From assembly GCA_029856125.1 (NCBI GenBank), contig JAHQWJ010000062.1, forward strand, positions 64,001 through 128,000: a stretch of DNA of 64,000 nt, read 5' to 3'. Below, piece after piece: positions 9,024-55,176 of this stretch. The stretch's first letter is position 1. Each line of letters starts with the position of its first letter. Both the position numbers and the translations under genes were made by a program. The DNA comes from Promethearchaeia archaeon (lineage in GTDB: Archaea; Asgardarchaeota; Lokiarchaeia; Sigyniarchaeales; SOKP01). The notes below the pieces were generated by a model. It did no database searches. It had not been told where the DNA came from and saw nothing but the letters and a program-made list of their open reading frames with translations.

Positions 9024-9710
9024 ATGCATAGCGTTGAAAAATTGTTTATTCTTAATAATGAAGTAAAACTGGAAGCTGAAGTTTTTCAGATAGAAAATGA
9101 AACACCTAGTTGCGTTGCATTAATGTGCCATCCACATCCTCAATTTCTTTGGGTTTAAATCCCAAGAAAGGGAAAGTATGGCGGGGACATGTATAATAAC
9201 GTTGTATCGGGTGTTTTCAATTCGTTCGTTAAAAAGGATATATCCTGCATACGCTTCAATTTTAGAGGGGCGGGTAATTCGACAGGGGATCATACAAGCG
9301 GTAAGGGCGAATTAAGCGATGTTAAGGCTTGTGTTGACCATTTAACGCAGAGTTTACATTTTGATAGAGTTTTTATATGCGGGTATTCCTACGGTGCAGC
9401 TATAGGGTGCTCTACTATCAATTATTCCGAAAAAATAATTGGATATTGTGCAATTTCTTTTCCTTGGGACTTTATGAGCGTCCAATATAAAGAGTTATCT
9501 CAATCGAAAAGACCAAAATTGTTCATTCAAGGGGATATGGATACAGTAGCCCCTTATGAAAATTTTATGAAACACTTTAATTATTATTCAGAGCCAAAAA
9601 AATTCAAGATTATAGAAGGGGCAGATCATTTTTATCAAAATTTTGAAGAGGTGATTAGTAGAGAAGTATTGAACTTTTATGATTCCATAGCTCAAAATCC
9701 AATTTCATAA
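9024..9710 (+). CDS. Alpha/beta hydrolase, intron-split (exons 9024-9142 and 9176-9710; 217 aa after splicing)
   Basis: ATG 9024 is open to ...MCHPHPQ, then a 33-nt insert with in-frame TAA, then YGGDMYNNVV...RFNFRGAG.S.G...GYSYG...QGDMD...GADHFY in the same frame. The track reports only the 3' part (9189-9710). Confidence 0.85.
9143..9175 (+). other. Putative bulge-helix-bulge (BHB) mRNA intron, 33 nt
   Basis: Central helix TCCT(9137-40)/GGGA(9170-73). Bulges CA^A (9141-43) and AA^G (9174-76). Intron stem TTTCTT-T-GGG/CCCAAGAAA. Splicing yields CAG (Gln) and restores HPHPQYGGDM. Confidence 0.85.
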
Positions 9711-42310: not shown

Positions 42311-42635
42311 GCCTAAAATCCACTCATTTTTTTTTAACTACTAAGACAATTCAGTGAAAAAGAGTAATTGAGATAAGGTATCATTCCTAAAAAATTTTCC
42401 GTTTTATACTAAAAATCGGCTCTAAATTGTTTCTAAAATTCTTAGAACTCTTTTTTCTTCTAAATAAAAAGGTTTATTACAATAATATAGAAAATAAGTT
42501 AACTAACCGAAAAATAAATTTCAACGATATTAATCCGAATAAAAAACTCATTAAAACAAAAGTATAAATTATTGTAACAAAACTTTTTTGTTATGTTTTT
42601 CTTATTTAGTATATACAATAATTAGTGTTTGAATA

Positions 42636-43247
42636 ATGGGAAGAAGGAAACGTAAACAACAATCATATAAAAGAGTTAAGCGAGTTCCAAAGATTTTCAC
42701 GTGCCCAAATAACTAAATGGATACCCCATTTAATATGGATTGCGGTGAAAAATCTGTCAAGGTTAAGAATATTCGGAAAAGCTTAATTGCCACAGTGAAG
42801 TGTGGTCATTGTGGCTTAACAAAGGATGTTTTAATTAATTCTATATCAGAACCGGTTGATGCCTTTGGAGATTTTATCGATATTCATTACGCTGATCAGG
42901 AACTTCAGAGACTAGAAAAACGCATAGAGAAACTTAAAAAGAAAAATGAATGGGGGGAATTAGTTCTAGTTTATTCTATTTTATCGGATATTTGCAAAGC
43001 TAAAGCTGCAGAGGCCTTAGAAGATGAAGATAATGTCAACCTTGATGTAGTTAATAAATGGAAAATTAGAGCGGAAGAATATAAAAGGTTAGGAAAGGAT
43101 GCATTACTTCAACTAGACTCTCTTGAGTTAGAGAAAGGAATTAAAACAGATGACGAGTCTTTGTTTACAGAGCACGACGAGAGTGACATGAAGAGGGAAA
43201 AAAAAATCGAAGATATTTTTGACGATCCAGGCTTTCTTGAATTCTAA
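42636..43247 (+). CDS. elf1: Transcription elongation factor Elf1 with helical/acidic C-terminal extension, intron-split (exons 42636-42710 and 42741-43247; 193 aa after splicing)
   Basis: MGRRKRK...VPKIFTCPN|CGEKSV....A.VKCGHCGL......EPVD.FGDFID is the Elf1 signature. A 30-nt insert with in-frame TAA splits the first CxxC. Confidence 0.88.
42711..42740 (+). other. Putative BHB mRNA intron, 30 nt
   Basis: Central helix CCAA(42705-08)/ATGG(42735-38) with one A-A mismatch. Bulges AT^A (42709-11) and AT^T (42739-41). Intron stem TAAATGG/CCATTTA. Long exon-exon stem AGATTTTCAC-G-TGC/GCG-GTGAAAAATCT. Confidence 0.8.
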
Positions 43248-53703: not shown

Positions 53704-55176
53704 ATGAATGTGAATAAAATAGATGAAAACATCTACGAAATCCCTCAAAAAACTTTAATGGCTCGAGTAGAAGGAAAGATCGCAAAATTTCAAATGAGAG
53801 TACCTGTCCATATTTATGCTAACGATTACATTTTAGAAAAAATTAAAAACGATAGAACTTTGGATCAAATTTGTAATGTAGCTTGTCTCCCCGGTATACA
53901 AAAACATGCTATTGTTCTCTCTGATGCACACCAAGGTTATGGGTTTTGTATTGGGGGTGTAGCAGGAACAGACGCTTATTCTGGAATGATTTCCCCAGGT
54001 GGTGTAGGATACGATATAAACTGTGGTGTGAGAATTCTAAGAACAAATCTTCACCTTAAAGATATTGAAAGTTCAATTCCTAAATTACTAGACACTATTT
54101 TTAAGAATATACCATCCGGATTAGGAAGTAAAGGAAAATTAAGCATCAATTCCTCTCAATTAGATGAGGTTTTAGATAATGGCTTAAATTGGGCATTAGA
54201 TAATGATTATGCTATAAAAGAGGATTTAGAGCATTGCGAAGAAAACGGTTTTTTGAAAAACGCTGATTCAAAATTAGTATCTCAAAAAGCAAAGCAAAGA
54301 GGAATAAAACAACTCGGCTCTTTAGGGAGCGGTAACCATTTTCTCGAAATACAAAAGGTTGATGAGATTTATAACGAGTCAGTGGCAAAGAAATTGGGAA
54401 TCATTAATAAAGATCAAATAGCAATCATGGTTCATACTGGTTCCCGGGCTCTTGGTCATCAAGTGTGCACGGATTCGCTTAGAAATGTCGAGCAAGCAAT
54501 GAGAAAATACAAGATAAAAGTACCAGACCGCGAGTTAGCTTGTGTACCAGCCGATACTCCGGAGGCAATACAATACTTGAAAAACATGGCTTGCGCTGCA
54601 AATTTTGGGTTTACTAATCGCCAGTTAATAACGCATTGGCTAAGAGAATCTTTCCAAAATCATTTTAAAAGGAGTTTAGACGATCTGGATTTTAAATTGA
54701 TTTATGGTGTTTGTCATAATATCTTAAAGATAGAAGAACATGATGTTGATGGGAAAAAAATGAAATTAAACATCCACAGAAAAGGCGCAACTAGAGCCTT
54801 CCCCCCAGAGCATCCAGATATACCCCGTGATTATAAAAGTATAGGTCAACCAGTTTTAATTCCTGGAACTATGGGAACTGCTTCGTACTTATGTGTTGGG
54901 AGACCAAAAGCAATGGATCTCTCTTTTGGTTCGACAGCTCATGGATCTGGGCGTGTGATGTCAAGATCTAAAGCAACGAAACAATATTGGGGCACTAAAA
55001 TAAAGGAAGATCTAAGGAATAAAGGAATTACCGTAAAAGCCGCCTCTCCTAAAATAATTGCGGAAGAAGCTCCTGGAGCATATAAAGACATAGATCAGGT
55101 TGTCCAAGTGAGCCAAGATCTCGGCATTGTAGAAAAAATTGTAAGATTAGTTCCAATTGGCGTTGTAAAAGGATAA
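53704..55176 (+). CDS. rtcB: RNA-splicing ligase RtcB
   Basis: DAHQGYGF.IGGV, GVGYDINCG, GSLGSGNHF.E, HTGSR, HN, HRKGAT, HGSGR and EEAP.AYK motifs. Confidence 0.97.
   Translation: MNVNKIDENIYEIPQKTLMARVEGKIAKFQMRVPVHIYANDYILEKIKNDRTLDQICNVACLPGIQKHAIVLSDAHQGYGFCIGGVAGTDAYSGMISPGGVGYDINCGVRILRTNLHLKDIESSIPKLLDTIFKNIPSGLGSKGKLSINSSQLDEVLDNGLNWALDNDYAIKEDLEHCEENGFLKNADSKLVSQKAKQRGIKQLGSLGSGNHFLEIQKVDEIYNESVAKKLGIINKDQIAIMVHTGSRALGHQVCTDSLRNVEQAMRKYKIKVPDRELACVPADTPEAIQYLKNMACAANFGFTNRQLITHWLRESFQNHFKRSLDDLDFKLIYGVCHNILKIEEHDVDGKKMKLNIHRKGATRAFPPEHPDIPRDYKSIGQPVLIPGTMGTASYLCVGRPKAMDLSFGSTAHGSGRVMSRSKATKQYWGTKIKEDLRNKGITVKAASPKIIAEEAPGAYKDIDQVVQVSQDLGIVEKIVRLVPIGVVKG

What the first reader, a model, noticed from the sequence alone, without database searches (positions are those of the whole stretch)
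42711..42740. 30-nt BHB intron splitting the first zinc-binding CxxC of transcription factor Elf1
Unspliced, the frame reads FTCPN-N*MDTPFNMD-CGEKSV; spliced, it reads FTCPNCGEKSV, the Elf1 zinc ribbon. The flanking exons form a roughly 13-bp stem, both 3-nt bulges are present, and the 4-bp central helix has one A-A mismatch, so it is a slightly relaxed BHB. That could mean slower, possibly regulatable splicing of a core RNA-polymerase factor (inference). The intron also holds an in-frame ATG (42717), which misled the ORF caller and could give an N-truncated isoform lacking one zinc ligand.
Basis: partly seen in the sequence, partly recalled or inferred. Interest (0 to 1): 0.88.

Follow-up and report, generated by a model that had tools for sequence, protein, structure and literature searches.

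The report
tRNA-type intron splits Asgard elf1 gene
The only gene for transcription elongation factor Elf1 in this Loki-type Asgard archaeon is interrupted by a 30-base insert shaped like a tRNA intron, and comparison with relatives plus one transcript-library contig indicate it is cut out of the mRNA, which the papers I could search report for only one other archaeal coding sequence (cbf5).

Summary
Window 42711-42740 is a 30-nt insert between the codons for CPN and CGEKS of elf1 (PF05129). Removing it gives a 193-aa protein with the intact CxxC...CxxC zinc ribbon.

[quoted passage not shown] It has a 13-bp exon-exon helix and 3-nt bulges AUA and AUU. The 4-bp central helix CCAA/AUGG has one A.A mismatch. 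A 9-pair intron hairpin closes it.

Comparative evidence is strong:
- 16 of 37 congeneric genomes carry an insert at the same site, of 28, 30, 31 or 32 nt, so it is often frame-shifting.
- All 16 give 193-aa ORFs when spliced, and dN/dS is 0.02-0.12.
- Compensatory changes keep the structure.
- The exon-exon helix is held at synonymous sites only where the insert is present.
- Three other genera of the same family have introns at this site.
- Precise losses recur.

A contig from a library labelled metatranscriptomic is 279/280 identical to the window and lacks exactly these 30 nt. EndA alpha- and beta-like genes and rtcB are present, and there is no second elf1.

The ideas of slow or regulated splicing and of a truncated isoform have no support.

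This scan has already noted an elf1 intron on other DNA (e1-5564858). I found no paper describing it. It is a new member of a known kind.

The parts
42636..42710 (+). elf1 exon 1: 25 codons, MGRRKRK...KIFTCPN, with the first Cys of the zinc ribbon
   Evidence: PF05129 profile positions 1-27. Identical in register to intronless orthologues. Exon-1 dN is 0-0.08 against dS 0.07-1.8.
42711..42740 (+). 30-nt BHB intron with an in-frame TAA at 42714-42716. Equivalent boundaries are 42709/42739 and 42710/42740.
   Evidence: The 30 nt are missing from the X2 contig. The sequence is unique in the genome. No Rfam family matches.
42741..43247 (+). elf1 exon 2: 168 codons plus stop. It holds the second Cys of the first knuckle, the CGHC knuckle, SEPVDAFGDFID and a ~115-aa charged C-terminal tail.
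   Evidence: PF05129, 3e-09, profile positions 28-76. Spliced total is 193 aa.
42691..42704 (+). 5' strand of the exon-exon outer helix h; pairs with 42742-42755
   Evidence: helix 1 is 92% paired across 15 sequences. It is kept at synonymous sites only in intron-bearing genes.
42742..42755 (+). 3' strand of the outer helix h, in exon 2
42705..42708 (+). Central 4-bp helix H, exon strand CCAA; pairs with 42735-42738 (AUGG). The fourth pair is A.A.
   Evidence: A-U becomes G-C in G024. The fourth pair is A-U in the 28- and 32-nt orthologous introns.
42709..42711 (+). 5' bulge AUA; inferred cut after U42710
   Evidence: Five tRNA introns of the same genome have the same geometry at ARAGORN's own boundaries.
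42712..42734 (+). Intron hairpin h': 42712-42720 pairs with 42726-42734, with one C.A mismatch and loop AUACC
   Evidence: helix 3 is 92% paired, and 3 pairs show double changes.
42735..42738 (+). Central helix H, intron strand AUGG
42739..42741 (+). 3' bulge AUU; inferred cut after U42740
53866..55173 (+). rtcB, the RNA ligase expected to join the exons. It is trans-acting and lies about 11 kb downstream.
   Evidence: PF01139 at 2.6e-170, G000:C63:117866-119173, which is window 53866-55173.

Best explanation
Window 42711-42740 is a genuine archaeal bulge-helix-bulge (tRNA-type) intron inside the coding sequence of elf1.

In the pre-mRNA, exon 1 and exon 2 pair with each other to form the outer helix. 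The last exon-1 bases, CCAA, pair with the intron's AUGG to form the central helix. The intron's own hairpin forms the inner helix. This presents two 3-nt bulges four base pairs apart.

Inferred steps: the heteromeric splicing endonuclease EndA (alpha-like gene on contig C135, beta-like gene on C56) cuts once in each bulge, and RtcB (window 53866-55173) joins the exons. The joined mRNA reads ...CCA AAU|UGC GGU... and encodes a 193-aa Elf1 with the complete C-x2-C...C-x2-C zinc ribbon. Unspliced RNA can only give a 26-residue peptide, or a ribbon lacking a zinc ligand.

Shown here: the structure and its covariation; selection on both exons; the exact junction in intronless orthologues; and one transcript-library contig with the junction.

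Inferred: that EndA and RtcB are the enzymes, and the exact cut positions.

The intron is old. The same site is occupied in four genera of one Lokiarchaeia-type family. It has been lost precisely several times, so it looks like a tolerated, structure-constrained passenger rather than a required regulator.
For: 1. Position and product. Removing the insert restores FTCPNCGEKSV, exactly as in 21 intronless congeners. The Pfam Elf1 match spans both exons. PDB Elf1 chains align across both Cys pairs.

2. It cannot be read through. Orthologous inserts are 28 nt (G013), 31 nt (G036) and 32 nt (5 species), as well as 30 nt (9 species). All 16 give 193-aa ORFs only after excision. Genus g28 has 31/32-nt inserts in 17 genomes read.

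3. Selection. dN/dS is 0.02-0.12. dS is at or near saturation (about 1 or more) between the distant intron-bearing lineages compared. Yet the G000 and G014 introns differ at only 3 of 30 bases.

4. Structure. 90.7% of cells pair, against 34-51% for slid controls. Double changes occur at 4 pairs. G013 has lost both bases of one pair. The 28- and 32-nt forms fold into a canonical hBHBh' as their MFE.

5. Exon constraint. The best duplex between the two exon flanks averages -10.3 kcal/mol in 37 intron-bearing genes. It averages -5.4 in 26 intronless genes encoding the same peptide.

6. RNA. Contig record 6 of run X2 (library source METATRANSCRIPTOMIC, marine sediment) covers 42645-42954 with 1 mismatch and exactly 30 nt left out at 42709. 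A contig of run X6, whose library type is not recorded, keeps the insert. Over that segment the nearest intronless species held by the genome search differs at 50 of 280 bases.

7. Machinery. Two EndA paralogues are present, one with Tyr/His/Lys and one without the His, plus RtcB. tRNA introns of this genome have the same geometry. Asgard EndA is reported to be an (alpha-beta)2 enzyme with the L1 loop, which that paper links to broad (relaxed-BHB) substrate specificity (PMC5829648).

8. No second elf1 in a 99% complete genome.
Against: The RNA evidence is a single low-depth contig (depth 5.6). The tool flags its run as 'RNA? (probably DNA)', because the library strategy is WGS although the source is metatranscriptomic.

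Intronless DNA alleles do exist fairly close by: L162/L163 are 91-93% identical. So an intronless strain 99.6% identical to this genome cannot be excluded as the source of that contig.

The one clearly RNA run (X5) did not cover the gene.

The central helix has an A.A mismatch. The MFE fold prefers a register that would cut out of frame. Single-sequence folding energy is not significant (z = -1.67).

No enzyme assay has been done.
Confidence: 0.9

Rival explanations
1. Exon 2 is translated on its own from the ATG inside the insert (42717). This would give the 176-aa protein that public databases annotate, an Elf1 with a three-Cys ribbon. Exon 1 would then be a remnant or a separate micro-ORF, and no splicing would occur.
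For: Gene callers produce this ORF. All proteins at least 96% identical in the 5.8-billion-protein collection are 176 aa. In-frame ATGs are present in the 30-nt and 32-nt forms.
Against: Exon 1 is conserved in frame and in sequence in all 16 intron-bearing congeners, with dN 0-0.08 against dS up to 1.8. The start is GTG in G024, and the corresponding ATG is out of frame in the 28- and 31-nt forms. The exon-exon helix is conserved at synonymous sites only when the insert is present. The insert shows RNA-structure covariation rather than codon-like conservation. A contig with the spliced junction exists.
Confidence: 0.03
2. The ribosome bypasses the insert during translation (programmed hopping, as in phage T4 gene 60), so the mRNA stays unspliced.
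For: A stop codon follows within two codons of the take-off site, and a hairpin lies in the gap. Both are features of gene 60 (comparison from general knowledge).
Against: No matching landing codon sits where it is needed: GAU or GAA precedes UGC/UGU, while the take-off codon is AAU or AAC. Bypass does not need an exon-exon helix, two 3-nt bulges four pairs apart, or covariation in the central helix. The 30 nt are missing at the nucleic-acid level in one contig.
Confidence: 0.02
3. The gene is a decaying pseudogene, or the insert is an assembly artefact or a small mobile insertion.
For: There is an in-frame stop in a single-copy gene. Three congeners have contigs that end inside elf1.
Against: The insert is seen in about 38 independent assemblies at the same site. 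dN/dS is 0.02-0.12. There is no other copy of the 30 nt in the genome. There is no second elf1 to take over.
Confidence: 0.01

Closest known systems
BHB intron in the cbf5 (pseudouridine synthase) pre-mRNA of Crenarchaeota (Watanabe 2002; Yokobori 2009, PMC2738675)
   Same: It is a tRNA-type intron inside a protein-coding sequence. It occurs in lineages with a heteromeric splicing endonuclease. Its distribution is patchy, with lineage-specific precise losses, and gene callers mis-predict the gene.
   Different: The gene differs (elf1) and so does the phylum (Lokiarchaeia-type Asgard, mesophilic marine sediment). The length varies from 28 to 32 nt among species. Here the central helix has one mismatch. 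Splicing of cbf5 was shown experimentally; here there is only one transcript-library contig. A 2020 paper states that cbf5 was then the only mRNA case reported besides its own 5'-UTR example (PMC7714728).
Archaeal tRNA introns with hBHBh' motifs, including the many non-canonical ones of Asgard archaea (Marck and Grosjean 2003; PMC11291895; bioRxiv 10.64898/2026.10.13.758758)
   Same: The motif geometry, size range and presumed enzymes match. tRNA introns of 18-36 nt in this same genome show the same arrangement of 4 helix bases plus 2 bulge bases before each cut.
   Different: The host RNA is an mRNA. The exon half of the motif therefore has to be built from codons, and it constrains synonymous sites. 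A failure to splice yields a truncated protein rather than a dead tRNA.
BHB element in the 5' UTR of Haloferax volcanii HVO_1309 (PMC7714728)
   Same: EndA acts on an mRNA.
   Different: That element lies in the untranslated leader and does not interrupt a reading frame.
Unconventional HAC1/XBP1 mRNA splicing in eukaryotes
   Same: It is spliceosome-independent, with endonuclease cuts in small RNA loops. In metazoans RtcB does the joining. It changes the reading frame or product of a transcription-related factor.
   Different: The endonuclease is Ire1, not a tRNA-splicing endonuclease. The cut sites are stem-loops, not a BHB. It is a stress-regulated switch, for which there is no evidence here. 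This comparison comes from general knowledge and was not tested.

Membership tests
Archaeal BHB (splicing-endonuclease) intron | [quoted passage not shown] | tested here: met
   Bulges AUA (42709-42711) and AUU (42739-42741). The helix CCAA/AUGG has 3 pairs plus A.A, so the motif is relaxed. The orthologous 28- and 32-nt introns have a perfect 4-bp helix, CCAA/UUGG.
Archaeal BHB (splicing-endonuclease) intron | Flanking helices h (exon-exon) and h' (intron) | tested here: met
   A 13-pair outer helix and a 9-position inner helix with one mismatch. They are 92% and 92% paired across 15 sequences.
Archaeal BHB (splicing-endonuclease) intron | Structure kept by compensatory change among orthologues | tested here: met
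   Four pairs have changes on both sides. The covariation score is 0.112 against 0.010-0.038 for slid controls, and 0 of 500 shuffles reach it.
Archaeal BHB (splicing-endonuclease) intron | Symmetrical cuts in the bulges give a functional joined RNA | tested here: met
   Cuts after the second bulge base on both strands give CPN|CGEKS and a 193-aa ORF in all 16 congeners. This junction is identical to that of intronless orthologues. tRNA introns of the genome follow the same rule.
Archaeal BHB (splicing-endonuclease) intron | The insert is absent from the mature RNA | tested here: inconclusive
   One contig (X2, metatranscriptomic source, depth 5.6) is 279/280 identical and lacks exactly the 30 nt. 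The run's RNA nature is uncertain, and an intronless strain cannot be excluded.
Archaeal BHB (splicing-endonuclease) intron | Splicing endonuclease and RtcB ligase are encoded in the genome | tested here: met
   PF01974 matches twice (97.8 and 72.9 bits). One product has Tyr/His/Lys and the other lacks the His. PF01139 (RtcB) scores 567 bits.
Archaeal BHB (splicing-endonuclease) intron | Cleavage by EndA in vitro or in vivo | not testable with these tools
   Needs recombinant enzyme or a culture.
Elf1 / ELOF1 transcription elongation factor (PF05129) | Match to the family profile above the curated threshold | tested here: met
   48.4 bits against a cut-off of 29.8 for the read-through, covering profile positions 1-76 of 79. 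PDB Elf1 chains from Pol II elongation complexes match a 95%-identical intronless orthologue at E = 1e-8.
Elf1 / ELOF1 transcription elongation factor (PF05129) | Four-Cys zinc ribbon (CxxC...CxxC) | tested here: met
   CPNC is present only after excision. CGHC lies in exon 2.
Programmed translational bypass (T4 gene 60 type) | Matched take-off and landing codons flanking the gap | tested here: not met
   The take-off codon is AAU or AAC. The codon before exon 2 is GAU, GAC or GAA.
Group I / group II self-splicing intron | Catalytic RNA core of hundreds of nucleotides | tested here: not met
   The insert is 30 nt. No Rfam match at E up to 1 in 42500-42900.

The most novel reading that the evidence does not exclude
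The elf1 intron may be one visible member of a lineage-wide population of EndA/RtcB-spliced mRNA introns in Lokiarchaeia-type Asgard archaea. Their presence or absence turns over quickly. In this picture the repeated, base-perfect losses come from reverse transcription of spliced mRNA, and exon sequences are shaped by the need to build half of the splice motif. Protein-gene intron dynamics would then be observable in the closest prokaryotic relatives of eukaryotes. Because translation can begin on nascent RNA, splicing might also gate how much Elf1 is made.

Two such introns in this one window stand up to comparison (elf1 and the hydrolase at 9143-9175). Notes from this scan claim many more, but I did not test those.
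Probability: 0.45. Interest if true: 0.9.

Novelty: new member of a known kind. Interest (0 to 1): 0.77.

Why it matters
Papers I could search document splicing inside an archaeal coding sequence for a single gene, cbf5, in Crenarchaeota.

This case has several features of interest:
- It sits in a conserved transcription elongation factor of an Asgard archaeon.
- It is polymorphic across about 130 related genomes.
- It has length variants that prove it must be removed.
- It has left a measurable imprint on synonymous sites of the exons.
- It has been lost cleanly several times.

That makes intron gain, maintenance and loss in protein genes directly testable in the sister group of eukaryotes.

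There is also a practical consequence. Public annotations of this Elf1 are wrong: they give a 176-aa ORF lacking a zinc ligand. Readers have taken that ORF for a 'degenerate three-Cys Elf1'. Gene callers for these lineages need a BHB-aware step.

Tried and rejected
- Rfam scan of 42500-42900 at E up to 1: nothing.
- blastn-short of the 30 nt against the whole genome: no second copy, so it is not a repeated element.
- Second elf1: none. The 17-bit hit on C152 is an unrelated 128-aa CxxC protein.
- Runs X5 (true RNA) and X1 had no contig over the junction, so they say nothing either way.
- Five congeners gave no family hit. In G005, G034 and G062 the gene is cut by a contig end. In G028 and G061 it was not found.
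- Low-scoring Elf1 hits in genus g18 are duplicated-ribbon proteins without an insert at this site. G053, G326 and the second G230 hit were not resolved.
- For genus g28 I tried all six equivalent boundary registers allowed by the GAAUG repeat. None gives a perfect central helix; the best keeps 3 of 4 pairs (and by hand).
- About half of ARAGORN's 14 intron calls look unreliable (introns of 6-13 nt, one of 1666 nt). Only the five with a 4/4 central helix at ARAGORN's own boundaries were used as a geometry control.
- Translational bypass, pseudogene and independent exon-2 translation were considered and rejected; see the rival explanations.
- Literature searches for Asgard or Lokiarchaeia mRNA BHB introns, or for an elf1 intron, found no report.

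Full report
**What is in the sequence**

The + strand from 42636 reads MGRRKRKQQSYKRVKRVPKIFTCPN, then AAC TAA, and the frame closes. A second ORF starts at ATG 42717 and runs to 43247. Deleting 42711-42740 (30 nt) joins CCA AAT to TGC GGT and gives FTCPNCGEKSV. Pfam's Elf1 zinc-ribbon model matches the read-through across both pieces (48.4 bits, cut-off 29.8, profile positions 1-76). It also matches each exon separately. An intronless orthologue 95% identical in protein hits Elf1/ELOF1 chains of solved Pol II elongation complexes at E = 1e-8, with both Cys pairs aligned. That orthologue aligns to the window's read-through with a single clean 10-residue gap. The genome is 99% complete by markers and has no other elf1.

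**The fold**

RNAfold on 42685-42765 gives the following:
- an exon-exon helix of 13 pairs;
- a 3-nt bulge AUU on the 3' strand;
- three pairs, CCA with UGG;
- an intron hairpin of seven pairs.

The centroid structure is the canonical layout: central helix CCAA/AUGG with the fourth pair A.A, and 5' bulge AUA. The MFE is 0.6 kcal/mol lower. It pairs A42709-U42710 with A42733-U42734, which moves the 5' bulge by two bases.

Cuts after the second base of each bulge give the in-frame product. Five tRNA introns of the same genome show the same arrangement with 4/4 central pairs, at ARAGORN's own boundaries. On its own this fold is not statistically unusual (z = -1.67).

**Relatives decide the matter**

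The genus holds 42 species genomes, and 37 have elf1 on a contig. Of these, 21 are uninterrupted and read FTCP(N/S)CGEKSV. The other 16 have an insert at exactly this site: 30 nt in nine, 32 nt in five, 31 nt in one and 28 nt in one. Three of the four lengths shift the frame. Even so, excision restores a 193-aa ORF in all 16.

dN/dS between intron-bearing lineages is 0.02-0.12, and synonymous sites are at or near saturation between the distant ones. So these genes have been functional, with the insert in place, for a long time.

On an alignment of 15 inserts with flanks, the proposed structure pairs 90.7% of cells, against 34-51% when partners are slid. Four pairs show changes on both sides:
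- In the central helix, A-U becomes G-C in G024. There a synonymous CCA-to-CCG change in the Pro codon is matched by U-to-C in the intron.
- In the inner helix, A-U becomes G-C at two positions.
- A C.A mismatch becomes G-C in the 32-nt group.

G013 lacks both bases of one inner pair. The 28- and 32-nt forms have a perfect CCAA/UUGG helix and fold into a textbook hBHBh' as their MFE.

**The exons carry the imprint**

The outer helix is built from the codons for I-F-T and G-E-K. In 37 intron-bearing genes, ATT TTC AC. and GGT GAA AA. are held, and the best exon-exon duplex averages -10.3 kcal/mol. In 26 intronless genes encoding the same residues the synonymous sites wander (ATA, TTT, GGA, GAG, AAG), and the mean is -5.4. 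The five 32-nt genes of this genus are an exception: their outer helix is weaker, but their central and inner helices are perfect. The species are related, so this is a pattern rather than a formal test.

**Breadth and history**

Among 400 genomes of the phylum, weak or split Elf1 hits cluster in the window's own family. Reading them shows same-site introns in three further genera:
- g22: 4 of 4 genomes, 30 nt;
- g27: 1 of the 9 genomes with an Elf1 match, 31 nt, with a perfect CCGA/UCGG helix;
- g28: 17 genomes read of 49, 31-32 nt, each with one mismatch in the central helix.

The intron sequences differ between genera but share a hairpin core (UGGAU..CCA), which suggests one old origin. I did not test that formally.

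A tree of the 3.1-kb locus, built without the intron, puts 15 of the 16 intron-bearing congeners in one clade of 17 (support 100). Two intronless members, G004 and G011, are nested inside it. G036 sits outside on a long branch. Metagenome contigs L162 and L163 are intronless genomic DNA 91-93% identical to the window. So at least three base-perfect losses have occurred among the relatives of this clade.

Record titles name the relatives as Promethearchaeota, Lokiarchaeota or Hermodarchaeota MAGs.

**RNA evidence**

Of eight public runs sharing words with the locus, four were laid. In run X2 (library source METATRANSCRIPTOMIC, strategy WGS, marine sediment) one 280-nt contig covers 42645-42954. 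It has a single mismatch and exactly 30 nt left out at 42709, which is the left-aligned equivalent of 42711-42740. A contig of run X6, whose library type is not recorded, keeps the insert.

Over this segment the nearest intron-bearing species differs at 11 of 280 bases. The nearest intronless species held by the genome search differs at 50. The contig therefore comes from this species or a strain of it.

I read it as spliced mRNA, but the support is modest. The contig has low depth, the tool doubts that the run is RNA, and recent precise losses exist nearby. X1 and X2 contigs lie only over coding parts of the stretch. That fits RNA, but at this depth it proves nothing.

**Machinery**

Two splicing-endonuclease paralogues of about 200 aa are present. 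One has the Tyr, His and Lys expected of a catalytic subunit. The other lacks the His, as a structural beta subunit would (the residue assignment is my inference). Published work assigns Asgard archaea an (alpha-beta)2 EndA with the L1 loop, an insert it links to broad (relaxed-BHB) substrate specificity (PMC5829648). RtcB is encoded at window 53866-55173.

Nothing here bears on splicing rate or regulation. The mismatch is specific to some lineages, and repeated loss shows the intron is dispensable.

ATG 42717 lies in the 5' strand of the intron's own hairpin, and a second in-frame ATG (42735) lies in the AUGG strand that pairs with the exon, so both follow from pairing. ATG 42717 is GTG in G024, and the corresponding ATG is out of frame in the 28- and 31-nt forms.

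The ORF-caller point is correct. Every public protein at least 96% identical is the 176-aa truncated ORF. Earlier notes of this scan read that ORF as a degenerate three-Cys Elf1.

**Comparison with what is known**

The closest case is the cbf5 intron of Crenarchaeota, which also shows lineage-specific loss (PMC2738675). A 2020 study stated that cbf5 was the only additional BHB intron reported in an archaeal mRNA, apart from its own 5'-UTR example (PMC7714728). My searches found heavy tRNA-intron loads reported for Asgard archaea (PMC11291895; bioRxiv 10.64898/2026.10.13.758758). They found no report of mRNA introns there, or of an elf1 intron.

This scan has already followed up a 32-nt elf1 intron in another genome, and similar introns in other Lokiarchaeia genes.
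- the junction-bearing contig;
- the synonymous-site imprint on the exons;
- the spread across four genera;
- the evidence for repeated precise loss.

**Verdict**

This is a real BHB intron in elf1: a new member of a known but very sparsely documented kind.

Noticed in passing
window 9143-9175 (+), in the alpha/beta-hydrolase gene 9024-9710: A second mRNA BHB intron candidate. A 33-nt insert sits between HPHP-Q and YGG, with a 10-bp hairpin. The same 33-nt insert, with compensatory hairpin changes, is found in 15 congeners. G022 has a 31-nt, frame-shifting form. It is absent, leaving a gap of exactly one codon, in G036, G011, G006 and G009.
   Followed up: partly
window 53866-55173 (+): rtcB, the RNA ligase expected to join EndA-cut exons, lies about 11 kb downstream of elf1 on the same contig.
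   Followed up: no
window 42870-43247 (+): Elf1 in this family carries a charged, coiled-coil-like C-terminal tail of about 115 aa ending in DIFDDPGFLEF. Total length is 193-206 aa, whereas most other Asgard lineages have open frames of about 77-134 aa.
   Followed up: no
public protein clusters P0002-P0012 and others: All public proteins at least 96% identical to exon 2 are annotated as a 176-aa ORF starting inside the intron. Elf1 of these lineages is therefore systematically mis-annotated as lacking the first CxxC.
   Followed up: yes
L087 (G193), and also G190, G191, G192, G194; G057 and G058: Genus g18 has 253-261-aa Elf1-like proteins with two zinc-ribbon modules in one frame. G057 and G058 show three tandem Elf1-domain matches in one 237-261-aa frame. 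These look like domain duplications, not introns.
   Followed up: partly
L055 (G034), L056 (G005), L057 (G062): In three congeners the contig ends inside elf1, so only the C-terminal part is present. Strain-level intron polymorphism breaking the assembly is one possible cause.
   Followed up: no
whole genome G000: ARAGORN finds only 30 tRNAs in a 99%-complete genome, and calls introns in 14 of them, several at non-canonical positions. This fits many tRNA genes being hidden by multiple or non-canonical introns.
   Followed up: no
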